Shown piece after piece: positions 1,120-53,582 of a stretch of DNA of 64,000 nucleotides. Position 1 is the first letter of the stretch; every line of letters begins with the position of its first letter. The position numbers and the translations under genes are program-made. The notes beneath the pieces were generated by a model. It did not search any database and had not been told where the DNA came from. It worked only from the letters and a program-made list of their open reading frames with translations. This DNA is from Escherichia phage vB_EcoM_G17, in the sequence record MK327931.1. The stretch is one strand, 5' to 3'.

Positions 1120-1815
1120 TTACACCCACTCTTCTACACCACCGCGACGCTTAACTAAGTACTTGCCTTCTTCGTTACGTGGACCAAGAATAATACCATC
1201 AATGAAACCATGTTCACCATATTCAAGTGCTTCTTCTGCATTTAACCACAAATCGCGGTCAGCATCTTTTAGTAATTGTTCATGTGATACACCTACAGCT
1301 TCTGCAATTTCTTTGGTCAACAATGTATTCAGTGCATCAGAATGTTGTAGGGAAATCTTCTGGTCTGTAATTAGACCTTGTGTACCAGAACTTACTTGGT
1401 GACACATGAAGTATGAGCGTTTACCACCTAAACGGAAACCTTTAGTCCCAATAACAGATTGTGTATAGCAACCCATTGATGCTGCATAGCCCATTACTAC
1501 AGTGCGAATTGGCGAAATACAAGACTTAGCAACATCTGCAATACCCAAACCTGCGTGTACTGAACCACCCGGTGAACTAATGTAGAATGTAATAGGGGAA
1601 TCACCTTGTGAGTCTAACCATACCAATTGTTGTTTGATGATATGTGCCATTTGATCATTGAAATCAGTATCAAGGAAAATGATACGGTCTTGCATCATAC
1701 GAGATGCTAGATCATATGTACGTTCTGAACCATTAACTTTCTCAACTACGTAAGGAATAGAAATGTTACGTACTTCGCCATTAGCATAACCACCAAACAT
1801 GAATTGTTCAACCAT
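1120..1815 (-). CDS. clpP: ClpP-family serine protease homologue
   Basis: 231 aa; ClpP/S14-like core: 'ISSPGGSVHAGLGI' (GGS nucleophile region), 'MGYAASMGC', 'MCHQVSSG' (His region). Confidence 0.7.
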   Translation of the reverse strand: MVEQFMFGGYANGEVRNISIPYVVEKVNGSERTYDLASRMMQDRIIFLDTDFNDQMAHIIKQQLVWLDSQGDSPITFYISSPGGSVHAGLGIADVAKSCISPIRTVVMGYAASMGCYTQSVIGTKGFRLGGKRSYFMCHQVSSGTQGLITDQKISLQHSDALNTLLTKEIAEAVGVSHEQLLKDADRDLWLNAEEALEYGEHGFIDGIILGPRNEEGKYLVKRRGGVEEWV

Positions 1816-3492: not shown

Positions 3493-4911
3493 TTAACCTA
3501 ATGCGTCAATAATACTGTTTGAGAACACTTCAACAGCACTCTCACGAATTTCTAAGATACGAGTATAATCATCACAAGTGTTTTTGTCAAATCTAAATTC
3601 AATAAACACTGGTAAGAACAGTGATGGCTCACCAGTACGCTTGTCGAATACAATGTCATTACACTCAACTGTAACCACTTTACCAATAAGTTCTTGCATT
3701 CTTTCCCAAATGGTTTTAAATGTCCATTCAGCATCTTTCTCTTTGATACCAGTACCCACATTAACTTTCAATGAACCACAAGCACTTTCCAGTTGTAAAG
3801 AACCTAGGCTTCCTTTACGTTTACCTTCACCTTCATTGAAACCAACAATACGTAAGTCCAGTTGCATTTTCAATTTCATTTTCAACTGCTTAGGTGAAGT
3901 ATGAGATTTCCAGATACCATCTTCACATTTCAGTACTGAACCCTCTTCACCTTCGTTCATTAGTTCACTATTGTACTCAAATGCTTCTTTGATGTTTAGA
4001 ACTTTACGGAATCCAACCATACGAACAAAATCACTATTGAGTTCGTTAATTGCATCTACTAAGATCTCGCGACGTTCTTTACGTTTTACATCCCATACAC
4101 CTTCACAAAATGCATCATATGGAACAACATCCCATAGAACGAATACAGTACGCATTGCTTCATTCTGACTGATGCTATCTTTACCAGCTTTCTGAATTAT
4201 ACCGTTGCCAGTAGTGCGTGGGAGAATGGTTTCTCCATCATTGTCCAGTACTACACCTTCCCCCATAAAGACTACACCACTACTAAAACGTTCATCTTTA
4301 CTTTGGATGATGTGAGCAAGACCTGCCATCTCACCATCACGACAACCCAGGAAGTCGTATAGTTTACCATTACGGGATGTAGAAGTTAATGAACCATTAA
4401 TGACAACGTGGTTTAAGTACTGACCATCCATTTTCACTTCTGATATAGCGTAACCATAATCTTTGAAGTTGATGTTCTTTGCAGTCTTTTTGTCAATCAA
4501 AGAACAACGCATATATGGTTCGTCTTTGATGAATCCTTTACCAAACACATCATTGCAGTTCTTCTCCTGAATACCACAATCAAGGTTCTTAGTGAGCATT
4601 CTACGTAGAACTTCCTGATCATCTTCAGATACAGAACCCAGTACTGAAGCAATGAAATCACGCCCCGCATTTCCTGTCACATCACGCTTGTAAATGCATT
4701 CTAGCTTATCAATTGCTTCATCTAACGTCATATGTTGATATACGTCATCAGCGGCAGGGAGCTTCTTATAGCCACTAACGATAGAAGGGTCTAGAGTATA
4801 TTTCAGTACTTTTTGTAAAGTTACATTATCTTTATTTTGTTCAAGAATAGCCTTTTTGCCCAGAGTACTGCTAGTATTTTTAATGCTTTCAAGAATTGCT
4901 AAAATGCTCAT
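3493..4911 (-). CDS. 30: ATP-dependent DNA ligase (T4 gp30-like)
   Basis: 472 aa; N-terminus 'ILAILESIKNTSSTLGKKAILEQNKDN' parallels T4 gp30 as recalled; adenylation motif 'KMDGQ'; 'EGVVLD'-type motif. Confidence 0.85.
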   Translation of the reverse strand: MSILAILESIKNTSSTLGKKAILEQNKDNVTLQKVLKYTLDPSIVSGYKKLPAADDVYQHMTLDEAIDKLECIYKRDVTGNAGRDFIASVLGSVSEDDQEVLRRMLTKNLDCGIQEKNCNDVFGKGFIKDEPYMRCSLIDKKTAKNINFKDYGYAISEVKMDGQYLNHVVINGSLTSTSRNGKLYDFLGCRDGEMAGLAHIIQSKDERFSSGVVFMGEGVVLDNDGETILPRTTGNGIIQKAGKDSISQNEAMRTVFVLWDVVPYDAFCEGVWDVKRKERREILVDAINELNSDFVRMVGFRKVLNIKEAFEYNSELMNEGEEGSVLKCEDGIWKSHTSPKQLKMKLKMQLDLRIVGFNEGEGKRKGSLGSLQLESACGSLKVNVGTGIKEKDAEWTFKTIWERMQELIGKVVTVECNDIVFDKRTGEPSLFLPVFIEFRFDKNTCDDYTRILEIRESAVEVFSNSIIDALG

Positions 4912-11222: not shown

Positions 11223-12155
11223 TTAGAAATTTCCTTCAGCCACTTGGAAAACTTTCAACCCAAGTAGCTTACGCCACATGAATACAACTTGATCGCGGTC
11301 ATCATATACCTTTTTAACATCGTAATGATCAACCACATTTTTCATGTACAGGTCGAATTTTACAACATCATCAGGACGTTTATCATCGATATCTCGCATA
11401 AACAATGCATCGTAAGGAACACCCCAATTCTTAAGCCACTGTTCGGTATCAGCACGACACCCTTCAGTACGCCCACTCATGACGATAATCTTGCGTTTAT
11501 GAAAAACTGCTTCAGCGATAATAGACAAAATAACTTCTTCATCAGGTGTATCCTGAAGAACAGTACTTTCATCGTAAGGATTACGACCCCATTTATGAGC
11601 AAGAGTTCCATCGATATCAACGATGATAGCAGCTTCGCGTGAATTACCATAGTAACCAATGTGTAATGCCTTACTATAATAGTACGTATCTGCCATTGTG
11701 TCAATGATATCATCTTGTACTGAACGCTCACGCTGGAGGTTATATTTCTTACAAAGTTTTACGAACTCTTTAATCTTAAAGAATTCATGAACATCTGCAC
11801 CACGGTCTTCATTAGGTACAAAATCATCATAGAAGTTCTTTTCTTTGTAATCATAACCATTATCTTTAGCCCATACTTTCCAGAGATTACGGAAATGTTG
11901 TTTAAGGTTTGTATCGGATATGATGATGTTCCAACCATTCTCTGCTGCTGAATTTGCTGCACTGAACTGTAAATTAGTTACGTACTGCTCATTAGCATCG
12001 TTGAATTTGTAAGCATCATGTGACCCAGCCATAGATTCACGAATATCATCACGGTTGATGTTGATAGTCTTGGATTTGGCATTTTTAATTTCTTGAACTG
12101 CCCATGTGGTTTTACCACACCCAGGTAATCCAACTGTTAGTGTAATAGTTGGCAT
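11223..12155 (-). CDS. pseT: polynucleotide 5'-kinase / 3'-phosphatase (T4 PseT-like)
   Basis: 310 aa; N-terminal P-loop 'GLPGCGKTT'; C-terminal HAD motif 'IVDIDGTLA'. Confidence 0.85.
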   Translation of the reverse strand: MPTITLTVGLPGCGKTTWAVQEIKNAKSKTININRDDIRESMAGSHDAYKFNDANEQYVTNLQFSAANSAAENGWNIIISDTNLKQHFRNLWKVWAKDNGYDYKEKNFYDDFVPNEDRGADVHEFFKIKEFVKLCKKYNLQRERSVQDDIIDTMADTYYYSKALHIGYYGNSREAAIIVDIDGTLAHKWGRNPYDESTVLQDTPDEEVILSIIAEAVFHKRKIIVMSGRTEGCRADTEQWLKNWGVPYDALFMRDIDDKRPDDVVKFDLYMKNVVDHYDVKKVYDDRDQVVFMWRKLLGLKVFQVAEGNF

Positions 12156-13251: not shown

Positions 13252-14394
13252 CTAAAAATCCTTTAGTACAATTTTCATGTATTTTATAAGAGTCTCTTTG
13301 TAATCAACTTTCTTATTGTTATACATTGCAAAGGCCAAGCCCTGACGATTCAGTTCATTAGTTAAACACTCCTGAACCTTCATTGCGAATTCCTTTCGCT
13401 CCAAGTGCTTGTGTTCCTTGACGAAGCTTTCTACTTCATCTTGTAATGCATTATAGCACGAAAATACCAATTGTTCCATTCTTAATATCTTTTGCATAGC
13501 ATATTCATCAGTACTGAACAATTGTTTTAAATCATCACTTGAACCATTTAATACTGCTTCATATAAATGAGAATCAATAATAATACTATCTTTTGTAAGA
13601 TGTAATGAACTGTACCAGTCAGTCTTTATTTTACACATTGTCCCATTATTTAGGATGCACACAAAACCCTCAATATCAAGCATTTTATGAACTTCCTCCA
13701 CGCTTTCACGGAAGGTATTTCGTACCGGAAAAGTGTGATGAATATCTTTTCCAGTCATATTAGTACTGTACTGTGCAAGACATGGAAACTTATCACGTAG
13801 TGCTTTACCACATAGCAACTCACCACTCACACGATGACGAACGTTCAGTACAAACAGTTGTTCTACCTGATATGGTAATACAATTCGGTACTCTGGGCTT
13901 GTATACTCCATATTAACTGTGTAACCTAAACGTTCCGCTTCGTCGATGTACTGATACAAATTCTGGTTCTCGTTAATAAGTCGAGTACTGTTAATCGCAT
14001 GGTCAGAATACAATGCAGTATGTGATTTACAACGAATCTCACCATCATTATCACGGTAAGTACTGATAATCGAACCATCCAACTTAGGCATCACTACCGC
14101 AATGTCATCGCATGTGGTGTTAGCAGGGAACATTGTAGCAGGATTCTCGTAAGCATTGAAGAACTTTTTCATTGTACGTGCTGCACAACGTATCATTTCA
14201 CCTTCTTCATCAATTTCCCACATAGAGCCACGGGTTTCCAACGCATTTGGTTGCATGAAATCAGTGTATGATGCTAGACGATAACTGAATACACGATACG
14301 TGCCACCAGCAGGACTTTTATGATCCACATAAAAGAATGCATCGTTTGTATTACATAAGTGCATTAAATCTTCATATATTTGCAAAAGGGTCAT
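13252..14394 (-). CDS. rnlA: RNA ligase 1 (T4 RnlA-like)
   Basis: 380 aa; N-terminus 'FFYVDHKSPAGGTYRVFSYRLASYTDF...ALETRGSMWE' parallels T4 RnlA as recalled; 'KLDGS' adenylation motif; 'KIKTDWYSSLHLTK'. Confidence 0.85.
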   Translation of the reverse strand: MTLLQIYEDLMHLCNTNDAFFYVDHKSPAGGTYRVFSYRLASYTDFMQPNALETRGSMWEIDEEGEMIRCAARTMKKFFNAYENPATMFPANTTCDDIAVVMPKLDGSIISTYRDNDGEIRCKSHTALYSDHAINSTRLINENQNLYQYIDEAERLGYTVNMEYTSPEYRIVLPYQVEQLFVLNVRHRVSGELLCGKALRDKFPCLAQYSTNMTGKDIHHTFPVRNTFRESVEEVHKMLDIEGFVCILNNGTMCKIKTDWYSSLHLTKDSIIIDSHLYEAVLNGSSDDLKQLFSTDEYAMQKILRMEQLVFSCYNALQDEVESFVKEHKHLERKEFAMKVQECLTNELNRQGLAFAMYNNKKVDYKETLIKYMKIVLKDF

Positions 14395-38207: not shown

Positions 38208-38792
38208 TCAAGATGGGTTGCGAAGTTCTACCATTTCTTTCCAAACTAATTGGTAATCTTCTAAGTCCAGATAGAAGTCTTCATTCCAGTGCTCATGAAA
38301 GTACTTATACATGAATAGAACTCCTAAATCGTATGCAGGAAACAATAATGATAGTTGAAAGTAGTATTCCTGATTTAAAACTATATCAATAAACTCTAAT
38401 GTACGTATGCCACCTTTCGATGAACGTATCTCAATGTGTGAGGTATCCTTCATACTGTAACACATGAAACCACCTCTAAATTCTGGATCATATTCACATT
38501 CGAACTGCTCACTGTTGTTATAGAAATCTCTCCCACTTTCTTGATCTTTCGGTCTACGTACTGATACATGAATATTTTTATCACGGTACATTGAACGATT
38601 TAGTATTTTCAAACATTTGAACTTATCTTCTTTAATGAACTTGATAATATCAATTATATCTTGTGCTGTACTGATAGCTGATTCGAATGTATCCAACTTA
38701 AGATGATTATATTGGGTTCCAGAGTTCATTTTTTTATCTAACATATAAACCTCATAATTCATACATTTTTGATTTGAACTGCATATGACCAC
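38208..38792 (-). CDS. FQxS-family paralogue
   Basis: 194 aa; 'QEYYFQLSLLF'. Confidence 0.55.
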   Translation of the reverse strand: MVICSSNQKCMNYEVYMLDKKMNSGTQYNHLKLDTFESAISTAQDIIDIIKFIKEDKFKCLKILNRSMYRDKNIHVSVRRPKDQESGRDFYNNSEQFECEYDPEFRGGFMCYSMKDTSHIEIRSSKGGIRTLEFIDIVLNQEYYFQLSLLFPAYDLGVLFMYKYFHEHWNEDFYLDLEDYQLVWKEMVELRNPS

Positions 38793-39093
38793 CTATTTCA
38801 CATGGATAACAATTCATAATTTTGTTCAATAGAATCTGGTATTTTTTAATAACTTCTATATCAATTTTTATATTACTATTAAAAACTAATGATTCTTGAA
38901 ATAATTCCCCCTCGTCAAGTGAAGTAAAATCATTTATCTTCAAGGGTATATTGTTGCATCGCAAGGAGAATGTATTTTCATCACGAATTAAAGTATAGAA
39001 ATCATTATGTTTTTTATTATAATCAAATTTAACAAGTAGTAGTTTAATATGAGTAGCGTACATTACTTTAACTAATTCAGATTCACGTCGCAT
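38752..39093 (-). CDS. FQxS-family paralogue
   Basis: 113 aa; 'EGELFQESLVF'. Confidence 0.55.
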   Translation of the reverse strand: MRRESELVKVMYATHIKLLLVKFDYNKKHNDFYTLIRDENTFSLRCNNIPLKINDFTSLDEGELFQESLVFNSNIKIDIEVIKKYQILLNKIMNCYPCEIGGHMQFKSKMYEL

Positions 39094-39515
39094 ACAATAC
39101 CTCTCTTATGATGCAAACATTCTTGCATAATGTGTTGTATTTTTCGTAACAGAAACACATCCAGTTCATTAAAAACAGTACTGTACTGGAACATCTCTTC
39201 TTCCCCGTACTCAGTTAAATCATCAATTTCATCTCTAGAAACAGCTACAATATTAAAACCACGTGTACTACAATAACCCTTAGTAAGATAATATATGTAC
39301 TTGTACTCTCCGTTGATATCTAAGAGATCTTGTGTGATACAGAAGCTTTTGGGTGACAGTTTATCATCAGGAACCATATGCCTTGCTTGTACATAGCAAC
39401 GGATACCATCACCTATACTATATGTAATAACTTCAAATTCAATCTTCATAGGTGAATATAATCCTTTTATATTGCTCAGGTGCAGTACTGAAACGTTTGA
39501 TTGGATAATTATCAA
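39072..39515 (-). CDS. FQxS-family paralogue
   Basis: 147 aa; 'EEEMFQYSTVF'; start may be the internal Met (MKIEFE). Confidence 0.5.
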   Translation of the reverse strand: MIIIQSNVSVLHLSNIKGLYSPMKIEFEVITYSIGDGIRCYVQARHMVPDDKLSPKSFCITQDLLDINGEYKYIYYLTKGYCSTRGFNIVAVSRDEIDDLTEYGEEEMFQYSTVFNELDVFLLRKIQHIMQECLHHKRGIVCDVNLN

Positions 39516-39801
39516 AGATTCTTTTCATTTCTTTCTGGATTAAACATAAGAAATCAAAGTTACAATCGTACTTATTATCCCATACTAAACTTTCTTGGAA
39601 TAACTCATCCTCTTGCATTAGTGTAGTGTCAATTACATCTTCACGGACATAGCTATATACTTCATAGCTCTTGAAGCCATCTTCTGATAATTCTAATTCA
39701 TATGCAGCCATATCAAACATATCATCATGGTTTGTCTTCAAAGATATTAAACAAGTAACTAATTTTTTAGTTGTATAGTATGTAATACTTAATGTGTTCA
39801 T
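39439..39801 (-). CDS. FQxS-family paralogue
   Basis: 120 aa; 'EDELFQESLVW'. Confidence 0.55.
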   Translation of the reverse strand: MNTLSITYYTTKKLVTCLISLKTNHDDMFDMAAYELELSEDGFKSYEVYSYVREDVIDTTLMQEDELFQESLVWDNKYDCNFDFLCLIQKEMKRIFDNYPIKRFSTAPEQYKRIIFTYED

Positions 39802-39806
39802 TTGTT

Positions 39807-40409
39807 TTATACCTCAGTATATAGCTTACAATAGCTTTCATCGAAATTACAAACACTTCTCAAGTACTGACACAGGTCATTGAAAATATTTACATTTGAT
39901 ATATATACATTATCAAATTCTGTTCGTTGAAAGAATGTATACATAGAATTTGTAATATATCGCATTGCATCTTCACGTCCCATAGTTATATCATTTGTGA
40001 ACATTGCATCTTCATCAGTACTGATGTGTTCTATTTTAAATGATTTCATAAATGGAATACTCTTTCCTAGGGCATAACCATCACCATATGATGCTTCTAC
40101 TGCACCTTTAGAATAAAGGAATTGATATAAGTCCGAATCACGATTATAAAAAGTACGACATACGGAGGAACATAATTTATTATCTATATGAAATAAAAAT
40201 CTTTTAGCATTTTTGTCTAATACTATTCGCAATGCATCACTCTCTAGAAATATATCACCATCAAGCATAAATGAGAACTGTACTAATGCTTTTTCTAAAT
40301 CCGCTCGTTTGTGATAAATCATTTCCTGCATATATATAATATCATTTGCTAATTTCTTAAAAAACAAATGCACATCTGCACTACAACATTTATTTGCATT
40401 TATTGACAT
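39807..40409 (-). CDS. hypothetical protein (200 aa)
   Basis: Minus-strand ORF in the array; motif not evident. Confidence 0.5.
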   Translation of the reverse strand: MSINANKCCSADVHLFFKKLANDIIYMQEMIYHKRADLEKALVQFSFMLDGDIFLESDALRIVLDKNAKRFLFHIDNKLCSSVCRTFYNRDSDLYQFLYSKGAVEASYGDGYALGKSIPFMKSFKIEHISTDEDAMFTNDITMGREDAMRYITNSMYTFFQRTEFDNVYISNVNIFNDLCQYLRSVCNFDESYCKLYTEV

Positions 40410-41141: not shown

Positions 41142-41337
41142 TAACCCTCTTCTGTATTAGTTCCTGTAAGTGCTGAATATAACCCTTCATTGCAACATCC
41201 TGTTTGTTAGAGCCAACGAAGAACAAGAGCTTAAAGTCATGGTAATCCATTTTTGGTTTAGTAGTGAACCATATGTCCCACACTGCACTCACAGTTCTCA
41301 TGTATTCAATTCGATTAAATGTTTTTGAATACTTCAT
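41119..41337 (-). CDS. LGTNYQE-family small protein (divergent, embedded copy)
   Basis: 72 aa; 'FFVGSNKQDV'. Confidence 0.45.
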   Translation of the reverse strand: MKYSKTFNRIEYMRTVSAVWDIWFTTKPKMDYHDFKLLFFVGSNKQDVAMKGYIQHLQELIQKRVNENNRPR

Positions 41338-42297: not shown

Positions 42298-42602
42298 AAT
42301 AATTCAACCACTCCATCTCTAAAGTACATATAACTACCACCATTGGATACCTTGAATTCTATTGTCCCCAATAATATATTATATTTTTTTATTTCACATG
42401 TAGTACTGGTAGTGTAAGGCTCACCATCTCCTAAGTACATTGACATATGACATAGAACTTTTCTACCTGCATATTTCTCTTCAAACGATTGTTCAAAACT
42501 ATGCATAATTTGATTTAAAGCTGAAATGTAATTAATAAAGTCAGGTATTTCTGTCAATGAATTATAAACCGTACAAAGTGAATCAAATTCATTTTTAGTC
42601 AT
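42294..42602 (-). CDS. small protein, KYxGKxV-like family (embedded in the FQxS array)
   Basis: 102 aa; 'EKYAGRKVLCH'. Confidence 0.45.
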   Translation of the reverse strand: MTKNEFDSLCTVYNSLTEIPDFINYISALNQIMHSFEQSFEEKYAGRKVLCHMSMYLGDGEPYTTSTTCEIKKYNILLGTIEFKVSNGGSYMYFRDGVVELL

Positions 42603-42916
42603 TATATTTCTATCTCAATGTAATCCTGTGTGATTAAGTAATCCCAATGATACTTCACCTGCTTTTGTAATTCAATTAACGTAAAGAAGTTGATCGATTT
42701 ATCCCATACGAGCGATTCCTGGAAAATAAATGATTCATGTTCATCGTAATAATCACACTCTAAAAAATCAGGTATATATTCACTATCGTGAATGTATTCA
42801 ACAAACGAACTAGCTTGGCATTTCTTTACTACTAGTAATAATGAATTATCATGATCAAACAGATACAATAAACTAATTTCACCAGGGACGTACTGAACAC
42901 TGAATAAGTTTTTCAT
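42602..42916 (-). CDS. FQxS-family paralogue
   Basis: 104 aa; 'ESFIFQESLVW'. Confidence 0.55.
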   Translation of the reverse strand: MKNLFSVQYVPGEISLLYLFDHDNSLLLVVKKCQASSFVEYIHDSEYIPDFLECDYYDEHESFIFQESLVWDKSINFFTLIELQKQVKYHWDYLITQDYIEIEI

Positions 42917-43365
42917 TCTATACCTTCTGGATCTTTACGAAGTTCTTCGAAATCCAAATAAAATCGAGGACAGTTAACACTCTTTAAGTACCACATAATA
43001 ACTAATGCTTCAAGTACTTCATCATCGTAAACAGTACTGTTTTGGAAGTAATACTCTTCACTATCCCACGGACCATCCAGTACTTCATAATTCAAAATTA
43101 ATGGTTTTTTGCGATTAATAAAACGAATGCTACCATTTTCAACATAACTAATAAATTCTGCATCTCTATTGTATTCAGAAAACGATATAGGACTATTGGA
43201 ATTCAACCCAAGAATAACCCTTACACCCACGGAGTTATTATACATTTCATCTTTGTAGTAGTTGCCGTTCTCGGCTTTGTACACTTCTTTGAACTTTCCT
43301 GCCTTTATATCGTCAAAGTATCCATGTAGTTCTTTTGCTTTTTCAAGAGCACTTTGTAATGACAT
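42913..43365 (-). CDS. FQxS-family paralogue (EEYYFQ subgroup)
   Basis: 150 aa; 'GPWDSEEYYFQNSTVYDDEVLEALVIMWYLKS'. Confidence 0.6.
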   Translation of the reverse strand: MSLQSALEKAKELHGYFDDIKAGKFKEVYKAENGNYYKDEMYNNSVGVRVILGLNSNSPISFSEYNRDAEFISYVENGSIRFINRKKPLILNYEVLDGPWDSEEYYFQNSTVYDDEVLEALVIMWYLKSVNCPRFYLDFEELRKDPEGIE

Positions 43366-43831
43366 TACCTTCTCCTACAGTATTCTCTACATATTCATAA
43401 TCAAAATAGAAACTACTGGAGTCAATACTTTTGAAATACCACATAATTACAATAACATCTAATTCTTCTTCATTGTACAACGTACTATTCTGGAAGTAAT
43501 ATTCTTCACTATCCCACGGTCCTTCCAGTACTGAATAAGGAATGATAGTGTCATCAGCATCACTATCTGTGTTGTAGATGGTAATATCTTCATTACGGCA
43601 ATAACTAATGTACTGATTGTACATATGATATTCACAGTTATCACTGTCACCAGTATCAGTGTGCAGTACTAATGTTTCTGCACATATCTCGGACTCGTCA
43701 TAATCGTCACGGTCTTTTACAAAAAATTCAGTATCAGATGTTTTATATACACCTGGTACTGAACCTTCCTGTACCATAATCATGTACTCATGAATCTTCT
43801 TTGCTTCTTTCAATGCACTTTGTAATGACAT
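43343..43831 (-). CDS. FQxS-family paralogue (EEYYFQ subgroup)
   Basis: 162 aa; 'GPWDSEEYYFQNSTLYNEEELDVIVIMWYFKS'. Confidence 0.6.
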   Translation of the reverse strand: MSLQSALKEAKKIHEYMIMVQEGSVPGVYKTSDTEFFVKDRDDYDESEICAETLVLHTDTGDSDNCEYHMYNQYISYCRNEDITIYNTDSDADDTIIPYSVLEGPWDSEEYYFQNSTLYNEEELDVIVIMWYFKSIDSSSFYFDYEYVENTVGEGNVITKCS

Positions 43832-44274
43832 TACAAATCCCCTGTACTTAAATATTCACATGCTCCCCAGTCAAGAAAGAATGGTTCAAAATTCAATTCC
43901 TTAAAGTACCACAACACAACCAAGGAATCAAGAATTTCTTGGTTAAAAATGAGACTCTGTTGGAAGTAATACTCTTCAGTACCCCACGGGCCATCAAGTA
44001 CCCCGAAGTCAACAGGTGTATTTGTTGTGTCAAAAGTAATCTTAGTACCTGGAATATATACAAAAAAATTAGTATATTGACTACATGAAGAGTACTGTAT
44101 AGTATTGTCTTTATCCTGTCCCATAAGTAAAATATCATCAGAGTATGTCTTTATACCTGATAGATAATACTCATCACCAAATGCACTTACTTTATCACCA
44201 TAGAACCCACTTTTTATGTTATCGTGGAAGTGATGTATTCTGTGTGCTAGTTCAAGTGCACTTGCTAAACTCAT
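43831..44274 (-). CDS. FQxS-family paralogue (EEYYFQ subgroup)
   Basis: 147 aa; 'GPWGTEEYYFQQSLIFNQEILDSLVVLWYFKE'. Confidence 0.6.
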   Translation of the reverse strand: MSLASALELAHRIHHFHDNIKSGFYGDKVSAFGDEYYLSGIKTYSDDILLMGQDKDNTIQYSSCSQYTNFFVYIPGTKITFDTTNTPVDFGVLDGPWGTEEYYFQQSLIFNQEILDSLVVLWYFKELNFEPFFLDWGACEYLSTGDL

Positions 44275-44741
44275 ATATCCTCTTTAATAACTCGTAGTAG
44301 ATCCAAGTCCAAATAGAAGCTAGGACAATCTGTATTATTAAAGTACCACAGAATGACAAGCTTGTCAAGTACATCTTCCTCGTAGATAGTATTCTGCTGG
44401 AAGTAGTACTCTTCACTTCCCCAGTCATTATCCAGTACTGAATACGGAAGATGTTTCTCTGCTGCACCAGATATAATGTCAGAATCTTGTATTAAAATAT
44501 CAGCATCACGACAGAAGTACATGTAATTATCTTCCAAATTAACATCACACCCATTGAGTGTTGTTTCAGAAGAATCTAAGTTTTCTTCATACATGTGAAT
44601 GTACTCACTACTGTCATCGTATCTCATTCGACAATATGATTTACCTTCCTTGAATAGATATCCATTAAGACAATTTGCTACAATTTCTTTGCTGCATAAA
44701 TCAATTAACTTCGCAATCTCTAATGCTCTTTCTAAACTCAT
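44271..44741 (-). CDS. FQxS-family paralogue (EEYYFQ subgroup)
   Basis: 156 aa; 'NDWGSEEYYFQQNTIYEEDVLDKLVILWYFNN'. Confidence 0.6.
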   Translation of the reverse strand: MSLERALEIAKLIDLCSKEIVANCLNGYLFKEGKSYCRMRYDDSSEYIHMYEENLDSSETTLNGCDVNLEDNYMYFCRDADILIQDSDIISGAAEKHLPYSVLDNDWGSEEYYFQQNTIYEEDVLDKLVILWYFNNTDCPSFYLDLDLLRVIKEDI

Positions 44742-44742
44742 T

Positions 44743-45234
44743 TCAACCCCTGTTAATACCGTTATCTACAGTTTTCTTTACGTATTTGTAATCGAAATAG
44801 AAGTTCCCAGAACCAATACTTTTAAAGTACCACATAATTATAATAACATCAAGTACTTCATTATCATATACAGTACTTTGTTGGAAGTAATACTCTTCAC
44901 TATCCCACGGACCTTCCAGTACTTCACTCGGAATTATAATGTCATTGGAATCGCTGTCAGTACTGTTGATGGTATCTGTATCATTAATATAGACCATGTA
45001 CTCATTATGCATATTAATGAAGCATTCATAATCATTAGGGTCGGTATCTAGTATGCACGTTTCTGTATCCAGTACGCACGTTTCTGTATCTGAGCAGTCA
45101 TTATAAAGGAGGTTATCCGGTACATAATATTGAGTACTTGTGTCTTTGAAAACACCGTAAACTGAACCTTCTTTTGCCATATTCATGTACTCATGAATCT
45201 TCTTTGCTTTTTCCAATGAACTCTGTAATGTCAT
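44743..45234 (-). CDS. FQxS-family paralogue (EEYYFQ subgroup)
   Basis: 163 aa; 'GPWDSEEYYFQQSTVYDNEVLDVIIIMWYFKS'. Confidence 0.6.
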   Translation of the reverse strand: MTLQSSLEKAKKIHEYMNMAKEGSVYGVFKDTSTQYYVPDNLLYNDCSDTETCVLDTETCILDTDPNDYECFINMHNEYMVYINDTDTINSTDSDSNDIIIPSEVLEGPWDSEEYYFQQSTVYDNEVLDVIIIMWYFKSIGSGNFYFDYKYVKKTVDNGINRG

Positions 45235-45243
45235 TTTATAATC

Positions 45244-45603
45244 TCATATATTGAAATAATAATTATTCGTTCTTGATGGGGATGGATTAAATACGTTTTC
45301 TTTTTCAAATCTCTTCATTTCATTTTGCAAAGAAACCATTTCTTCAAATGTACAGGAGTACTTATTCTTATCAAACACTAATGCAGCCTGAAATAGTTCC
45401 CCATCGTCCAGTACTGTATAATCTATAAGACTCTCAGATTCATAGTCATAGTCGTCATGTGATACATGAATAAATTTAAAACAAGAATCTTTGTAATGCA
45501 TATATAAACTCAACTCATGTTCCGAGTCGCCCTTAATAAGATTACAGCACAAGTCCCATCCTTTAGGTAACTTATAATAGTACATAGAATAATCATATGT
45601 CAT
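45244..45603 (-). CDS. FQxS-family paralogue (short subgroup)
   Basis: 119 aa; 'YTVLDDGELFQAALVFDKNKYSCTFEEMVSLQNEMK'. Confidence 0.6.
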   Translation of the reverse strand: MTYDYSMYYYKLPKGWDLCCNLIKGDSEHELSLYMHYKDSCFKFIHVSHDDYDYESESLIDYTVLDDGELFQAALVFDKNKYSCTFEEMVSLQNEMKRFEKENVFNPSPSRTNNYYFNI

Positions 45604-45956
45604 TCTTGAATTCCTAAATTGAATTTGTATTCTTGATTAATACTTGCATTGGGTTTATGCAAAGCAGCATACTCTTTCATTTCATTTTGTATTGCAATAA
45701 CTTCTTCAAATGTACACAAGTACTTCTTATCAAATACTAATGATTCTTGGAATAGTTCTGCGGTATCCATTAATGTATAGTCCGGCATATCTTGGTGTGG
45801 ATACTGTAATGAACTGTAATCAATGAATGTAAATTTACCCTGAGTGTAATGAATATACTCATTTGCACTGTGCATTAAATCACCTTTGTTTAAATTACAA
45901 AAGTACTGATAACTGTGCTTGAAAGTATGTACTGATATTAAAAAATCAAATTCCAT
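45600..45956 (-). CDS. FQxS-family paralogue (short subgroup)
   Basis: 118 aa; 'DTAELFQESLVFDKKYLCTFEEVIAIQNEMK'. Confidence 0.6.
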   Translation of the reverse strand: MEFDFLISVHTFKHSYQYFCNLNKGDLMHSANEYIHYTQGKFTFIDYSSLQYPHQDMPDYTLMDTAELFQESLVFDKKYLCTFEEVIAIQNEMKEYAALHKPNASINQEYKFNLGIQE

Positions 45957-45959
45957 CAG
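45878..45959. repeat. 82-bp direct repeat, copy 1 (covers the 5' end of gene 45600..45956)
   Basis: Matches 46406..46487 with 2 mismatches by eye ('AAATCACCTTTGTTTAAATTACAAAAGTACTGATAACTGTGCTT...AAAAAATCAAATTCCATCA'). Confidence 0.7.
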
Positions 45960-46327
45960 TACTCAACCTCTACATAAATAGATTCAGGAAACTTAGTCAT
46001 ATAATCTTCTGGATAGTTCTGCATTACTTTGATCATTTCTGCCTGTGTAGCACGGACGTATTCAATTGGTGCTCCTGGTAAATTCCAGACAGTACTTTCC
46101 TGAAAGAATTCCTCTTCTGACAGTACTGTCAGATTTACAAAATCATTACGGTAATTTTTTGAATCATCATATGTGAAGATTTTAAAAGACCCATTTTCAT
46201 ATAGTACAAGAACAAAATGGGAGAATTTTTGTAATGCACCACCAAGGCTTTCCACGACCGCATGATTCAGTGTACAGATGACCTCTTTTTTCCTCATACC
46301 GAATTGAATTCTAATTTCTTTTTTCAT
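45956..46327 (-). CDS. FQxS-family paralogue
   Basis: 123 aa; 'LSEEEFFQESTVW'. Confidence 0.55.
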   Translation of the reverse strand: MKKEIRIQFGMRKKEVICTLNHAVVESLGGALQKFSHFVLVLYENGSFKIFTYDDSKNYRNDFVNLTVLSEEEFFQESTVWNLPGAPIEYVRATQAEMIKVMQNYPEDYMTKFPESIYVEVEY

Positions 46328-46329
46328 AA

Positions 46330-46490
46330 AATCTCCTTCAGATTAGTACTGAATTTGTACAGAATATTAGAACTGTATACAGCCTCTGTATCTGTATCCA
46401 TAATCAAATCACCTTTGTTTAAATTACAAAAGTACTGATAACTGTGCTTAAAAGAATGTACTGATATTAAAAAATCAAATTCCATCACAC
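46330..46490 (-). pseudogene. truncated duplicate of the 5' end of gene 45600..45956 (~53 codons)
   Basis: My translation: 'MEFDFLISVHSFKHSYQYFCNLNKGDL...' then diverges and stops; reproduces the N-terminus of the downstream paralogue; contains direct-repeat copy 2. Confidence 0.45.
46406..46487. repeat. 82-bp direct repeat, copy 2
   Basis: Near-identical to 45878..45959 (2 mismatches by eye), 528 bp apart. Confidence 0.7.
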
Positions 46491-46862
46491 TTCCCCTAGA
46501 TTGAAATGATTACAAAAATCATCTTCACCAGTACTGCACCAGATATCTATACATTCCCTGTGAATACATTTAATTCTACGCTGTAATTCAATCATCTCTT
46601 CTAATGTACAGATGTACTTCTTATCAAATACTAATGCCGCCTGAAACAGTGCAGCATCATCAAGTACTGTATAGTCCAACATCTCGGTTGCTTTACCCCT
46701 AAACCCAGTACTAAAATCCATCAAATAAAAGTCAGCATTCCAGTACTTTAAAATCTTGTCCCTAGCGTAGTTTAAATCACCCTTGTATAAGTTAGAGTGC
46801 GTAACTAACTCACCAGTGTACATCCATGTCCTTGCACAAAATTCATTATATTTTATTTCCAT
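46485..46862 (-). CDS. FQxS-family paralogue (short subgroup)
   Basis: Track ORF extends to 47048 through a low-complexity leader; probable start is Met 'MEIKYNEF' at 46862. 'LDDAALFQAALVFDKKYICTLEEMIELQ'. Confidence 0.55.
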   Translation of the reverse strand: MEIKYNEFCARTWMYTGELVTHSNLYKGDLNYARDKILKYWNADFYLMDFSTGFRGKATEMLDYTVLDDAALFQAALVFDKKYICTLEEMIELQRRIKCIHRECIDIWCSTGEDDFCNHFNLGEV

Positions 46863-47060
46863 CTTAATCTCTACTATAATTAATAAGGTAAACTCCAATA
46901 TAAGGAGAACGTTCGGCGGCGGGGTATTTTTTGTTTCAAGAAACATGAACTGTACTCTGAAAAACACAATATAAAACTTTATATTAAACATATACCTTAG
47001 CATGTTTTTCAGCGGAAATTTTTTTGACCCCCCCCTGCGGCCTGTCAAAATGAAACGTCT
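46863..47060. other. ~200-bp non-coding island with G/C-rich tracts
   Basis: 'GAACGTTCGGCGGCGGGG' and 'TTGACCCCCCCCTGCGGCC' in an AT-rich context; no credible ORF. Confidence 0.35.
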
Positions 47061-47285
47061 CTATTTATTCAGCCTAGAAACCTTGATTTCTTCAATCCTT
47101 TTCATTGCACAAAGCCTTCGACTCGTCCTCTCGTATATATTCAATACTCGCTGTAATGCATTATCTGTATTATCTGCAACTGCAATCTGAACCAAATATG
47201 TATCCTTCAAAATAGAATCCATCATGAATTCAAAACCTTTCACACTAAAGCAATATGCCACTTCCGGCTCTTCAAACGTAATCAT
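47061..47285 (-). CDS. small hypothetical protein (74 aa)
   Basis: Minus-strand ORF; 'DNALQRV' resembles the unlisted small ORF at 47465..47641. Confidence 0.45.
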   Translation of the reverse strand: MITFEEPEVAYCFSVKGFEFMMDSILKDTYLVQIAVADNTDNALQRVLNIYERTSRRLCAMKRIEEIKVSRLNK

Positions 47286-47502
47286 AATTCCAATCCCCTA
47301 TTCCCTCTAACCTTCTAAGATATCTTGCGTAAATTATTTCGAAATATCTGTGCAACGAAATTACGGATTGCTCATAATCATCATTCCTGTACATTGTGCA
47401 TGTCAGAAAATCATTTAACCCAAAATCTAAACTGCACTTGAACTTCTCCTTTGCAATATCACTATTACTTGCACTTTTCATAATAAACCCTTTGTACCGC
47501 AT
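47272..47502 (-). CDS. small hypothetical protein (76 aa)
   Basis: Minus-strand ORF; start uncertain. Confidence 0.4.
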   Translation of the reverse strand: MRYKGFIMKSASNSDIAKEKFKCSLDFGLNDFLTCTMYRNDDYEQSVISLHRYFEIIYARYLRRLEGIGDWNYDYV

Positions 47503-47663
47503 TGGTGTACTGTGAACTCAGCACCACTAATAGGTAATCTATATTGTAAGCACGATTTCCTCGTTGACTAGCACGGCTGGAATAAAGAATATTATCCACA
47601 TATGTATTGAACTGATCTTCAAATAACTCTTTCATCAGCATTATACCATCACATAATCATACA

Positions 47664-48287
47664 TCATACATTAACAACTTTATCGATGTAATCTTCTAAC
47701 ATATCAATATATCTGGTATTGGTTCTAACTAAAAGGTATGCAAATCCAGAAAACTCCTGTGTATAATGCTTTACAGCGTACATACAACGAAGCTTATCAT
47801 TGTCATACATTGTACTGTACTGAAACAAACTCTCGTCTGATAGCTCTAATAACGCTTGGGCTTCACTTCTCGTGAACTTCATAGGGTCATGTACTGCATC
47901 ACAAAAACAAACCTGTGTCTCGCTATTGAAACCCTGTGATAGATATATACCTTCACACTCTGAACGCACCGATACTGCATTATAACTATGTGTTGCCCCC
48001 ATCATATCTGAACTCAAAACTAAAATCAACCCATTTTTATTTTTAATCAACAAATCTGACTTAAGGGATTTGATCTCCGTATGGGAAATATCACCAAATC
48101 TTCCTGGGACTTCAAACTTATCAACGTTGTATACAATCTTTTGTACTTGCTCTTTTAAACGCTTAATTGCACTTCTGTCTTTTTCTAATGTATCTAATAA
48201 ACTCATTGAACTCATTGTACTTTCCTTACATATTTGTACCGAACAAAACGGAACTTTGAATGCCATTAATCGACACTTCATGTACAT
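47664..48287 (-). CDS. FQxS-family paralogue
   Basis: 207 aa; 'LSDESLFQYSTMY'. Confidence 0.55.
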   Translation of the reverse strand: MYMKCRLMAFKVPFCSVQICKESTMSSMSLLDTLEKDRSAIKRLKEQVQKIVYNVDKFEVPGRFGDISHTEIKSLKSDLLIKNKNGLILVLSSDMMGATHSYNAVSVRSECEGIYLSQGFNSETQVCFCDAVHDPMKFTRSEAQALLELSDESLFQYSTMYDNDKLRCMYAVKHYTQEFSGFAYLLVRTNTRYIDMLEDYIDKVVNV

Positions 48288-48570
48288 ATATATTTTGTCT
48301 GAACAAAGGAACTAATTGAACTAAACTCGTTTGCATAATAATATGCATATGTACATTGTCATATGCCGTTTCGTATTGGAATCGTGCAGCTTCATCTTCT
48401 ATGAAATTCGGAACTTGGACTGGATTCTCAAAATTTGTCCTTGTACTGAACTGTACATCATTGTCCTGTACCTTAATACCATATGAATTATCATTGTTAT
48501 CAACTACATCAAATTCAATTAAACTACCATCTTTACTGACGTTTACTATATAAACCGAAAATCGACTCAT
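48226..48570 (-). CDS. FQxS-family paralogue (divergent)
   Basis: 114 aa; 'EAARFQYETAY'. Confidence 0.5.
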   Translation of the reverse strand: MSRFSVYIVNVSKDGSLIEFDVVDNNDNSYGIKVQDNDVQFSTRTNFENPVQVPNFIEDEAARFQYETAYDNVHMHIIMQTSLVQLVPLFRQNIYVHEVSINGIQSSVLFGTNM

Positions 48571-49082
48571 AAACCTATTTCCTCTAAATCTTTGACAAAT
48601 GTATCATAATCCGATAATGACAAAAATATGTCTGTACTGATGTTTTGACGTAATGTATTAAACAAATTATGTACCTGTAATAAATCAGGTGCATAAATCA
48701 GGGATTGCTGGAAATACGATTCTTCTGTATCTAATATATCCCTGCACTCAATTTCACGAACTCGTTGGTATATTGAATTTAATAATACATTTTCATCTTT
48801 GAGCATTGGAAGGTATCGGATGTACATGTGCTCCATCAACTCATCCTGGATTGAACCCCTGAACTGCAACACGTATTCAAAACACATCACTACATCTTGT
48901 AGGTAATTGGCACTGTAATTATTGCTGTAAACAATCTTATGACTTCTGAACTCATCATCATTTCTGAACCAATTGTCACCTACTTTGGTGTACTTATGAC
49001 TAAGCTTCCCATCCTCCAACGCTCGAATGAACTTCATAATGTTAATTGCAAAATCATATGAATGATGCTTGTGTTGATGCAT
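48567..49082 (-). CDS. FQxS-family paralogue
   Basis: 171 aa; 'DTEESYFQQSLIY'. Confidence 0.55.
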   Translation of the reverse strand: MHQHKHHSYDFAINIMKFIRALEDGKLSHKYTKVGDNWFRNDDEFRSHKIVYSNNYSANYLQDVVMCFEYVLQFRGSIQDELMEHMYIRYLPMLKDENVLLNSIYQRVREIECRDILDTEESYFQQSLIYAPDLLQVHNLFNTLRQNISTDIFLSLSDYDTFVKDLEEIGL

Positions 49083-49090
49083 TTTTTACC

Positions 49091-49285
49091 TCAATTCTGT
49101 CCGAAAAAATAACCAAAATGTTTAAAGCAAGAAAGCATTACTATGTTCATCACTCTATCATCAAATTCATCTTGTGTTTCTGCACATAATGTTTCACAGA
49201 TATTCAAATGTAATAATTCAAGCTGGAAACTGTCGGTGAACCAATCAAACTTACGGTATTTTTGTTTAACATCAACTGTAAGCAT
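49091..49285 (-). CDS. small hypothetical protein (64 aa)
   Basis: Minus-strand ORF filling the gap between two paralogues. Confidence 0.4.
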   Translation of the reverse strand: MLTVDVKQKYRKFDWFTDSFQLELLHLNICETLCAETQDEFDDRVMNIVMLSCFKHFGYFFGQN

Positions 49286-49286
49286 A

Positions 49287-49910
49287 CTATATATCCAACC
49301 CTTTTACAACATCTACGAAATGTTCAAACACTTCTTTTGAAAAATAACCACCTTCACAAAAAAGCATACTAAACGGTGGCAGCATGTCCGATAACTCTTT
49401 AGCTAAATTGATTTCTGCTCTTAACTCTTGAACATCAATGATATCATGTACTAAAGATAATTGAAACATGAATGCATCTACATCTTCATTCATTTCTGAA
49501 TTGTAATATAACTCTTCAGGGAATTTGTCGGTTTCGTAATAATAAAAAACTTTATTGTTGAACACACCACTAATAGGAACATCATTTTCATCTTTCTTTG
49601 AAATGTTTGTTTCCCATGACTCTATATTATTAGGAACAAAAAAATCATAGGCTGATTTTGAACCCTGTACTGAATCCAACTTTATTCCATAATATTCCGT
49701 ATCCATGTATTTCTGCTGTAATGTAATACCACGTGTACTGACATTCACTTGGAATATATCATCTTTATCTGGAACACTAAATGGAATACATAACACTGAA
49801 TTCTCAGGGTATTTGGCAATGAATGCATCCAGCACTTTATTAAGCACCGGAATGGCAATTTTACTGTACTGCATCAAATCATACATTTTAATTCTGGTCA
49901 TATCATTCAC
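49287..49910 (-). CDS. FQxS-family paralogue
   Basis: 207 aa; 'VDAFMFQLSLVHD'. Confidence 0.55.
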   Translation of the reverse strand: MNDMTRIKMYDLMQYSKIAIPVLNKVLDAFIAKYPENSVLCIPFSVPDKDDIFQVNVSTRGITLQQKYMDTEYYGIKLDSVQGSKSAYDFFVPNNIESWETNISKKDENDVPISGVFNNKVFYYYETDKFPEELYYNSEMNEDVDAFMFQLSLVHDIIDVQELRAEINLAKELSDMLPPFSMLFCEGGYFSKEVFEHFVDVVKGLDI

Positions 49911-50981: not shown

Positions 50982-51011
50982 GATAACAGCTTTGGTCTTC
51001 TATGTCAATAC

Positions 51012-53434: not shown

Positions 53435-53582
53435 TAATGTTCTTCTCTTAAAAATCGTTTGATAGCATAATCTAAATAAAATTCATAACACATGCTATCT
53501 CTGTTCTTTATCCATATTTTGTAATCGGATTTTATATTACGCAACAAATAATTTGTATTAATTGTGTAATAATCTAATCGCC

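What the first reader, a model, noticed from the sequence alone, without database searches (positions are those of the whole stretch)
45878..46490. 82-bp near-perfect direct repeat and a truncated gene copy: a fresh recombination footprint
The 5' end of gene 45600..45956 (45878-45959) is repeated 528 bp away at 46406-46487 with two mismatches by eye. The second copy forms a ~53-codon ORF that reproduces the N-terminus 'MEFDFLISVH(T/S)FKHSYQYFCNLNKGDL' and then terminates. This looks like a partial duplication or deletion intermediate and shows the array is actively rearranging.
Basis: seen in the sequence. Interest (0 to 1): 0.5.

Follow-up and report, generated by a model that had tools for sequence, protein, structure and literature searches.

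The report
Repeat-flanked foreign gene cassette in jumbo phage
The 82-base repeat is real, but it brackets a small gene block that came from a related giant E. coli phage and has since been passed around and lost by recombination, which is an ordinary though unusually well-resolved example of how phage genomes shuffle genes.

Summary
It is the only direct repeat above 90% identity in the window. The window is a 121Q/PBECO4-like (Asteriusvirus) jumbo coliphage.

The repeat is not a fresh local duplication. It brackets a 447-bp block made of the last ~25 codons of a gene Y plus a whole gene X (123 aa). In A4-like phages Y (192-198 aa) and X are intact neighbours. The window already has its own diverged Y-X-Z block at 38.7-40.4 kb. 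The 53-codon ORF is therefore a chimera: 28 codons of gene B fused in frame to the end of Y. Both junctions sit on microhomology (GATTTRAT and TGATGGA).

At least 11 genomes or contigs share these exact junctions. At least 17 relatives have the empty site with one repeat copy, differing by exactly 529 bp. The two mismatches are existing allelic variants of gene B. In phage Turkey3 the cassette is identical to the window while both flanks are 10-18% diverged, so it has moved between genomes with exchange points inside the repeat.

This works like the PeSL cassette shuffling of T4-type phages. The function of the genes is unknown. Interest is modest.

The parts
45877..45958 (-). Downstream repeat copy R. 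It comprises the stop codon of X (TGA), the overlapping ATG, and the first 26-27 codons of gene B.
   Evidence: It is 100% identical to the single copy in JP4, SP27 and WPEC3.
46406..46487 (-). Upstream repeat copy R'. It comprises the stop codon of gene A, the overlapping ATG, and the first 26-27 codons of the chimeric short ORF.
   Evidence: It is 100% identical to the single copy in PBECO4. It varies among cassette-bearing phages and travels with the gene A background.
46324..46485 (-). Chimeric short ORF of 53 codons: B residues 1-28 fused in frame to the C-terminal ~25 codons of gene Y. Its start overlaps the stop of A (TGATG) and its stop overlaps the start of X (ATGA).
   Evidence: It is intact in all 10 cassette-bearing sequences examined (the window plus nine relatives), at 53 or 74 codons.
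46328..46405 (-). Y-derived tail, the remnant of the 3' end of a 192-198-aa gene that is intact in A4-like phages.
   Evidence: The alignment to A4 gene A4_364 and its relatives shows 84-88% nucleotide identity.
46355..46369 (-). Scar of a 63-nt in-frame deletion within the Y tail. It is the surviving copy of an imperfect 15-nt direct repeat (sense TAATRTTCTGTRCAA).
   Evidence: 121Q, ERZ27269291 and all A4-like sequences keep the 63 nt. The window type lacks it.
45956..46327 (-). Gene X (123 aa, phrog_13866), the cargo of the cassette. It is a xenologous second copy.
   Evidence: PHROG hit at 2e-41. It is 93-98% identical to X of A4-like phages. pN/pS is 0.12-0.49. It is absent from all empty-site phages.
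46403..46410 (-). Upstream junction microhomology (sense GATTTGAT), where gene B sequence joins gene Y sequence.
   Evidence: B reads GGTGATTT(A/G)ATGCAC. Y reads CAGGATTTGATTATGG. The chimera reads GGTGATTTGATTATGG.
45952..45958 (-). Downstream junction microhomology (sense TGATGGA), where the end of X joins the start of B.
   Evidence: A4 X-Z junction: GAGTACTGATGGATTTAG. Empty-site A-B junction: GAAGTGTGATGGAATTTG. Window: GAGTACTGATGGAATTTG.
45600..45956 (-). Gene B (118 aa, phrog_15629), the intact gene whose 5' end is repeated.
46485..46865 (-). Gene A (about 126 aa from the ATG at 46865; phrog_15629), the tandem paralogue upstream of the cassette.
45244..45603 (-). Gene C (119 aa, phrog_15629), the tandem paralogue downstream of B.
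38752..40409 (-). The window's own diverged Y-X-Z block: Y_w 39807..40409, X_w 39439..39801, Z_w 38752..39093. It is syntenic with the donor locus of A4-like phages.

Best explanation
The repeat is the scar of an ectopic insertion of a foreign gene block, not of a local duplication.

Shown: In an ancestor with the tandem paralogues A-B-C, a fragment from an A4-like relative was joined into the start of gene B. The fragment carried the last ~46 codons of gene Y plus the whole of gene X. The join used two microhomology junctions. The first leaves B after nt 82 at GATTTRAT. The second returns to the very start of B at TGATGGA. Because the return point lies 82 nt upstream of the departure point, those 82 nt are present twice.

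Inferred: The mechanism was two template switches, or two illegitimate crossovers, during a mixed infection.

Shown: A 63-nt in-frame deletion between 15-nt repeats then shortened the Y remnant to the form seen in the window.

Shown for the outcome, inferred for the intermediate: The block [Y-tail + X + one repeat copy] has since behaved as a cassette. Homologous recombination within or next to the 82-nt repeats carries it into other B-allele backgrounds. Recombination between the two copies would delete exactly 529 bp and give the empty-site form seen in many relatives. A 529-bp circle as the intermediate is not demonstrated.

Inferred: The 53-codon ORF is most likely a by-product. Its reading frame keeps ribosomes flowing from A into X through overlapping stop/start codons. 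X is the selected cargo.
For: - Identity of the genome: Asteriusvirus-like, 93-99% identical to SHEFM2K, 121Q, PBECO4 and others.
- Exact indel: E9.1 and PBECO4 align to window 45200-45958 and 46403-47100 with an 85-nt overlap. They therefore hold one repeat copy and lack exactly 529 bp. The same holds for JP4, SP27, vB_Ec-M-J, TH47, ph0011, UE-S1, WPEC3, CMSTMSU and EC.P1. Six further records match only the same 65-67% or 45-46% of the query and were not fetched.
- Donor: in A4 and four independent assemblies, X is preceded by an intact 192-198-aa Y and followed by Z. Homology to the window begins at GATTTGATTATGGAT inside Y and ends at GAGTACTGATGGA.
- Ectopic position: the window carries its own diverged, colinear Y-X-Z at 38752-40409.
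- Absence elsewhere: empty-site phages have no X above 30% identity, and full-length Y occurs only in A4-like genomes.
- Single origin: both junctions are identical in all 10 cassette-bearing sequences examined.
- Empty site probably ancestral: it is the form in all of the most diverged lineages, including ERR11558579 (B 78% aa), UE-S1 and ph0011.
- Movement: Turkey3 has no mismatch to the window over 45877-46438, while its A gene is 86% and its B body 90% identical. Its upstream copy carries its own lineage's allele. CRJP21 and slurp01 are further mosaics.
- The window's two mismatches are the PBECO4 and JP4/SP27 alleles.
- X is under purifying selection (pN/pS 0.12-0.49). The tail accumulates 3-5 times more non-synonymous change.
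Against: - The direction (insertion rather than a remnant of a longer ancestral array) rests on parsimony and on identifying the donor locus. No time-ordered or experimental evidence supports it.
- In 121Q and CRJP21 the two copies differ by a 25-nt patch of unknown source. A simple one-genome template switch does not predict this.
- No intermediate (Y-X-B, or B'-Y-tail-X-Z) was found in the phage records, IMG/VR or JGI metagenomes.
- Some empty sites in close relatives such as E9.1 (99.5% identical flanks) could be either secondary losses or never-occupied sites.
- The circle intermediate is not demonstrated.
- An in-frame fusion plus an in-frame 63-nt deletion has a chance probability of about 1/9. 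This leaves room for selection on the short ORF itself.
Confidence: 0.7

Rival explanations
1. Remnant of a longer ancestral array. The ancestor read A - B' (a full second B-type gene) - ... - Y - X - B - C. An internal deletion between GATTTRAT microhomologies fused the 5' end of B' to the 3' end of Y. All empty-site phages then arose later by recombination between the two repeat copies.
For: - The left junction has the microhomology expected of a deletion.
- In 121Q and CRJP21 the two copies are only about 85% identical, as old paralogues might be.
- Recombination between the copies would give exactly the observed empty site.
Against: - No genome or contig shows the proposed intermediate.
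- X here is 93-98% identical to A4-like X but only 28% identical to the window's own X_w. This pattern fits recent import.
- All deeply diverged lineages have the empty site, so many independent losses would be needed.
- The right junction (end of X to start of B) also sits on a 7-nt microhomology with the A4 X-Z junction. A purely ancestral adjacency does not require this.
Confidence: 0.15
2. One reading: a fresh partial tandem duplication (or deletion intermediate) of gene B that arose within this genome's recent history and may be heterogeneous in the sequenced population.
For: - The copies are 97.6% identical, far above all other paralogue repeats in the window.
- The second copy is truncated.
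Against: - The 447 bp between the copies is not duplicated local DNA. It is a Y-tail + X block of foreign origin.
- The identical structure is fixed in at least 10 other independently obtained sequences.
- The two mismatches match two circulating alleles exactly.
Confidence: 0.04
3. The chimeric 53-codon ORF is itself a selected new gene: a B N-terminal peptide fused to a Y C-terminal peptide, for example a decoy or regulator of the B/Y protein families. The repeat would then be kept because the peptide is useful.
For: - The ORF is intact in all 10 cassette-bearing sequences examined.
- Both the fusion and the later 63-nt deletion are in frame.
- It is translationally coupled on both sides.
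Against: - The tail evolves with pN 3-5 times that of X and pN/pS of 0.4-0.8.
- Twenty-one codons could be deleted.
- The N-terminal part simply mirrors whichever B allele is local.
- A 28-residue fragment covers only the first two predicted strands of the family fold.
- The chance of two in-frame events is about 1 in 9.
- Many close relatives do without it.
Confidence: 0.12
4. Assembly artefact: a collapsed or mis-joined repeat produced an apparent duplication.
For: Short repeats in paralogue arrays are a common cause of misassembly.
Against: The same structure, base for base at both junctions, is present in about 10 other independently obtained sequences, including 121Q and a metagenomic contig.
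Confidence: 0.01

Closest known systems
PeSL-mediated modular shuffling in T4-type phages (Arbiol et al. 2010, PMC2839356; Comeau et al. 2014, PMC4122927)
   Same: - A single small gene of unknown function in a hyperplastic region is flanked by two copies of a short repeat.
- Related phages differ by presence or absence of exactly gene + one repeat, and the empty site keeps one (chimeric) repeat.
- The process is expected to be reversible through recombination between repeats.
- In RB49/phi1 this was shown to give mini-circles.
- The Turkey3 exchange points fit integration of such a circle.
   Different: - Here the repeat is not an intergenic promoter/stem-loop cassette present many times in the genome. 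It is the first 82 nt of a coding gene, present twice, and was created by the insertion event itself.
- No promoter or terminator signal above background lies in it.
- The host virus is a Rak2-like jumbo phage, not a T4-type phage.
- Circles have not been looked for.
Microhomology-mediated illegitimate recombination or template switching (FoSTeS/MMBIR-type templated insertions; illegitimate recombination at short homologies in phage mosaicism). Named from general knowledge.
   Same: - Two junctions lie on 7-8 nt of microhomology.
- The inserted DNA is copied from another locus or genome.
- The stretch between the departure and return points is duplicated.
   Different: The replication-based mechanism is inferred from the junction anatomy only. 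Two separate break-join events would leave the same scar.
Unequal crossing-over in tandem paralogue arrays
   Same: This array does undergo it. A metagenomic relative (SRR27732228) has one A/B hybrid gene in place of A and B, with the crossover in the conserved LFQ..LVFDKKY region.
   Different: The 82-nt repeat in the window is not explained by unequal crossing-over between A, B and C. They share only 70-85% identity over shorter stretches, and the intervening DNA is foreign.

Membership tests
PeSL-type mobile cassette (T4-type phages) | A gene in a variable region is flanked by two copies of a short repeat, and the empty site in relatives keeps one copy. | tested here: met
   the difference is exactly 529 bp, and there is a single copy in the 11 empty-site genomes fetched.
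PeSL-type mobile cassette (T4-type phages) | The repeat is an intergenic regulatory unit (early promoter plus stem-loop terminator) dispersed many times in the genome. | tested here: not met
   The repeat is the 5' coding end of gene B and occurs only twice in 64 kb. Promoter- and terminator-like sites are no more frequent than in shuffles, and no terminator-like site lies in the repeat.
PeSL-type mobile cassette (T4-type phages) | Excised mini-circles are detectable in infected cells or virions. | not testable with these tools
   This needs inverse PCR or deep reads. The Turkey3 breakpoints are compatible with a circle but do not prove one.
Simple tandem (segmental) duplication | The DNA between and including the repeat copies is a copy of adjacent local sequence. 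| tested here: not met
   The intervening 447 bp matches the A4-like Y-X block at 84-98% and has no local source.
Transposable element (IS or MITE) with target-site duplication | Presence of a transposase or terminal inverted repeats, with a short (2-14 bp) target duplication. | tested here: not met
   No inverted repeat bounds the block. X has no Pfam domain. The duplication is 82 bp.
Homing-endonuclease-driven mobile gene | An encoded GIY-YIG, HNH or LAGLIDADG nuclease lies in or next to the mobile block. | tested here: not met
   Pfam finds nothing in X, the short ORF, A, B or C. X belongs to the same orphan superfamily as its neighbours.
Microhomology-mediated templated insertion | There is junction microhomology of a few bases at both ends, and the insert is traceable to another template. 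| tested here: met
   The junctions are GATTTRAT (5-8 nt, depending on the B allele) and TGATGGA (7 nt). The template is the Y-X block of A4-like phages.
Microhomology-mediated templated insertion | It arises by replication template switching rather than break-and-join. | not testable with these tools
   The anatomy does not separate the two mechanisms.
PHROG families 15629 (A, B, C) and 13866 (X) | A significant full-length match to the family profile. | tested here: met
   B 2.9e-56, C 8.4e-60, A 1.9e-58, X 2e-41. The short ORF matches only profile positions 1-39 (1.3e-9).

The most novel reading that the evidence does not exclude
The 82-nt coding repeat works as a portable recombination site. 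The 529-bp unit [repeat + Y-tail + X] would be excised as a circle and re-integrated into any co-infecting genome that carries a B-type gene start. That would extend the PeSL mini-circle way of gene shuffling to coding-sequence repeats in Rak2-like jumbo phages. It would also offer a general route by which the 39-plus-member orphan array gains and loses members. The Turkey3 pattern points this way: both exchange points lie in the same 33 nt of the repeat.
Probability: 0.2. Interest if true: 0.5.

Novelty: new member of a known kind. Interest (0 to 1): 0.3.

Why it matters
This is a rare case in which a phage gene-gain event can be read almost base by base. The evidence includes:
- the donor locus;
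- both microhomology junctions;
- a follow-up in-frame deletion;
- the empty site;
- later transfer of the cassette into diverged genomes.

It shows how the large orphan-gene arrays of Rak2-like jumbo phages turn over. It also gives a concrete, testable substrate (an 82-nt, 97.6%-identical direct repeat around a 447-bp block) for measuring excision and integration rates in a jumbo phage. It does not reveal a new kind of element or a new function.

Tried and rejected
- Pfam on A, B, C, X, the short ORF and neighbours gave no hits.
- A profile search of the superfamily against PDB sequences gave nothing at E up to 1.
- The profile search of 1.84 billion proteins returned only 105 clusters, so there is no annotated relative to borrow a function from.
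- IMG/VR scans for both junctions and for the 121Q patch returned only 121Q itself.
- The JGI metagenome scan for X found nothing.
- The promoter/terminator scan of 45.0-47.8 kb was no better than shuffles.
- The first literature search was too loose and returned irrelevant papers. I found no paper describing this array or this cassette.
- I considered and rejected a transposon, a homing-endonuclease element, a simple tandem duplication and an assembly artefact (see the membership rows).
- One script timed out and one failed on a file name. Both were re-run.

Full report
**1. The observation**

Reading 45400-46800 and aligning the two segments confirms a near-perfect direct repeat. The exact limits are 45877-45958 and 46406-46487: 82 nt, two mismatches (45921/46450 and 45926/46455) and an offset of 529. 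The repeat finder extends it to 85 nt at 96% (D9).

A search allowing three mismatches finds only these two sites, against none in 100 shuffles. Across the whole 64-kb window it is the only direct repeat of 40 nt or more above 90% identity. Every other paralogue repeat is 60-87% identical.

All genes here are on the minus strand. In sense orientation the repeat starts at TGATGGAATTT, which is the stop codon of the preceding gene overlapping the ATG, and ends at ...AAAGGTGATTT. The upstream copy opens a 53-codon ORF (46485..46324). Its first 28 residues match gene B (45956..45600). It then reads IMDTDTEAVYSSNILYKFSTNLKEIL and stops on the ATGA that starts the next gene.

**2. Context**

The window is 93-99% identical to Asteriusvirus jumbo coliphages such as SHEFM2K, 121Q, PBECO4, phAPEC6 and slurp01.

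The local minus-strand order is:
- A (46865..46485);
- the short ORF;
- X (46327..45956);
- B;
- C (45603..45244);
- five phrog_9317 genes.

A, B and C match phrog_15629 and X matches phrog_13866. The short ORF matches only the first 39 positions of phrog_15629.

An iterated profile started from X gathers at least 39 ORFs between 27 and 56 kb of the window into one superfamily, sharing the motif [ED]E..FQ.S. That superfamily has:
- no Pfam match;
- no PDB sequence match;
- structural neighbours in BFVD that are all uncharacterised, the named ones being proteins of slurp01 and RaK2;
- only 105 clusters among 1.84 billion proteins.

Its function is therefore unknown.

**3. Two forms of the locus in relatives**

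E9.1 and PBECO4 align to window 45200-45958 and to 46403-47100 with an 85-nt overlap in their own coordinates. They hold one repeat copy and lack exactly the 529 bp between equivalent points of the two copies.

I fetched 21 phage records and 8 other contigs and scored each segment.
- The cassette-bearing form is in the window, SHEFM2K, 121Q, CRJP21, Turkey3, BF17, EC22.5-2, phAPEC6, slurp01 and the metagenomic contig ERZ27269291. From the search tables it is also in ECO103 4-12-1. Sharanji also carries X at 100% identity, but its record ends inside this region.
- The empty form is in E9.1, PBECO4, JP4, SP27, vB_Ec-M-J, TH47, ph0011, UE-S1, WPEC3, CMSTMSU, EC.P1 and the diverged contig ERR11558579. 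Several further records match only the same 65-67% or 45-46% of the query and were not fetched.
- Empty-site phages have no X-like gene above 30% identity anywhere in their genomes.

**4. Where the intervening DNA comes from**

In 121Q the short ORF is 74 codons. It has an extra in-frame 63 nt bounded by an imperfect 15-nt direct repeat (TAATGTTCTGTGCAA / TAATATTCTGTACAA). The window keeps one copy of that repeat at 46355-46369.

A tblastn search with the 121Q ORF hit phage A4 over residues 24-69. In A4, X is preceded by an intact 192-aa gene, called Y here (A4_364). The last 46 codons of Y are the 'tail' of the short ORF. X is followed in A4 by a different gene, Z. Four independent assemblies have the same Y(192-198 aa)-X-Z order. 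Full-length Y exists nowhere else in the phage collection.

Homology between the window and the A4-like sequences begins at GATTTGATTATGGAT inside Y and ends at GAGTACTGATGGA, which is the stop of X plus the next ATG.

The A4 locus is colinear with window 36.4-41.9 kb, not with 45-47 kb. The window has its own diverged Y_w (39807..40409, 24%, E 4e-8), X_w (39439..39801, 28%) and Z_w (38752..39093, 41%), with the neighbouring genes in the same order.

So X at 45956-46327 is a second, imported copy placed about 6 kb from the native one. The short ORF is a chimera of B(1-28) and the C-terminus of Y.

**5. The junctions**

Upstream junction:
- B: ...AAAGGTGATTT(A/G)ATGCAC
- Y: ...CAACAGGATTTGATTATGG
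- Chimera: ...AAAGGTGATTTGATTATGG

This gives 5-8 nt of shared sequence, depending on the B allele.

Downstream junction:
- Empty-site A-B: GAAGTGTGATGGAATTTG
- Window X-B: GAGTACTGATGGAATTTG

This gives 7 nt shared.

Leaving B at nt 82 and re-entering at nt 1 duplicates those 82 nt. This is the anatomy of a templated insertion through two microhomology-guided switches or two illegitimate joins. The junctions are shown; the mechanism is inferred. Both junctions are identical in every cassette-bearing sequence examined, which argues for a single origin.

**6. The two copies are alleles, and the cassette has moved**

Aligning every repeat copy gives three results.
- The window's upstream copy equals the single copy of PBECO4. 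Its downstream copy equals the single copy of JP4, SP27 and WPEC3 (100% each).
- Among cassette-bearing phages the upstream copy comes in three types: PBECO4-like, a 121Q/CRJP21 type with a 25-nt divergent patch, and a vB_Ec-M-J-like type in Turkey3. Each type goes with the gene A background.
- The downstream copy, X and the tail are nearly invariant.

A 50-nt mismatch map and exact mismatch lists show that Turkey3 is identical to the window from 45877 to 46438 only. Gene A is 86% identical, the B body 90% and gene C 82%. Both exchange points therefore fall in the same 33-nt sense-3' part of the repeat.

Other mosaics point the same way.
- CRJP21 combines a window-type cassette with the 121Q-type upstream copy.
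- slurp01 combines a window-type tail with a 121Q-type X.
- One A4-like contig (SRR33746294) has the window-type allele over the 5' two-thirds of X in a Y-X-Z context.
- E9.1 has flanks 99.3-99.7% identical to the window yet lacks the cassette.

The cassette has thus been gained or lost repeatedly by recombination at or in the repeats. This matches the behaviour described for PeSL-flanked ORFans in T4-type phages, where excision circles were shown experimentally (PMC2839356). The difference is that this repeat is coding sequence created by the insertion, not a dispersed regulatory cassette. No promoter or terminator signal above background lies in it.

**7. Direction**

Several facts favour the empty site as ancestral:
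- it is the form in all the most diverged lineages;
- the cassette has one origin and low diversity;
- its donor locus is identifiable and has a native counterpart in this genome;
- the tail makes sense only as a fragment of Y.

I cannot exclude that some empty sites in close relatives are secondary deletions between the copies. I also cannot fully exclude a longer ancestral array, because no time-ordered data exist. The patch in 121Q/CRJP21 has no known source.

**8. Is the short ORF a gene?**

It is intact in all ten cassette-bearing sequences examined and is coupled to A and X by overlapping stop/start codons. The fusion and the 63-nt deletion are both in frame, which has a chance probability of about 1/9.

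Against this, the tail has pN 0.09-0.14 compared with 0.017-0.041 in X, and pN/pS of 0.4-0.8 compared with 0.12-0.49 (counts are small). Its N-terminal part simply copies the local B allele. I read it as a tolerated by-product that keeps translation flowing into X, with about 12% probability that it is selected in its own right.

**9. Is the array 'actively rearranging'?**

On an evolutionary scale, yes. Besides the cassette, contig SRR27732228 has one A/B hybrid gene in place of A and B. Its crossover lies in the conserved LFQ..LVFDKKY region, which is a classic unequal crossover. Within this isolate, nothing can be said without reads.

**10. Verdict**

This is a real and unusually well-documented recombination scar of a known kind. 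It is not fresh and it is not a local duplication. The gene functions remain unknown.

Noticed in passing
window 1-64000, densest at 40000-56000: GTAC is the most over-represented 4-mer: 534 observed, against 191 expected from base composition and 344 from a Markov model. AGTACT occurs 190 times against 21 expected, GTACTG 137 against 10 and CAGTAC 116 against 11. GATC is depleted (95 against 191). The repeat itself holds two CAGTAC. The cause (codon or motif usage, or a genome-wide signal) was not examined.
   Followed up: partly
window 27000-56000: At least 39 minus-strand ORFs of 100-210 aa form one orphan superfamily with the motif [ED]E..FQ.S. Only 105 clusters match it among 1.84 billion proteins. 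It has no Pfam or PDB relative. The only named structural neighbours are uncharacterised proteins of slurp01 and RaK2.
   Followed up: partly
L028 (SRR27732228) 2501-2830: A single 109-aa gene replaces A and B. Its first ~230 nt are A-like (80-90%) and the rest is B-like (83-94%). This indicates an unequal crossover in the conserved LFQ..LVFDKKY region.
   Followed up: yes
L003 (121Q) 3295-3319, L006 (CRJP21) 2372-2396, L023 2810-2834; equivalent to window 46431-46455: A 25-nt patch with 13 differences lies inside the upstream repeat copy, flanked by identical sequence. Its source allele was not found in any fetched genome or in IMG/VR.
   Followed up: partly
L029 (SRR33746294) 2501-2872: An A4-like Y-X-Z locus carries the window-type allele over the 5' two-thirds of X, including the extra codon, and the A4-type allele over the 3' third. 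X alleles are therefore exchanged between the native site and the cassette.
   Followed up: partly
window 45041-45082: There is a 21-nt in-frame tandem duplication (86% identical) inside the phrog_9317 gene 44743..45234. It encodes the repeated heptapeptide ETCVLDT/ETCILDT (D13).
   Followed up: no
window 57400-61600: A second array of short diverged tandem units (periods of about 220-270 bp) lies on the minus strand, in a stretch with strongly negative AT skew (D2, D3, D5, D7, D8, D10).
   Followed up: no
window 1120-14394: Pfam gives clear hits here: Clp protease (1120..1815), two calcineurin-like phosphoesterases, ATP-dependent DNA ligase (3493..4911), polynucleotide kinase-phosphatase (11223..12155) and T4-type RNA ligase 1 (13252..14394). 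The last two form a T4-like RNA repair pair. No tRNA genes were found in the window.
   Followed up: partly
L010 (phAPEC6) 3672-4049: The orthologue of gene A is annotated 'amidohydrolase 3' in the phAPEC6 record. Gene A has no Pfam hit here, so the name looks unsupported.
   Followed up: no
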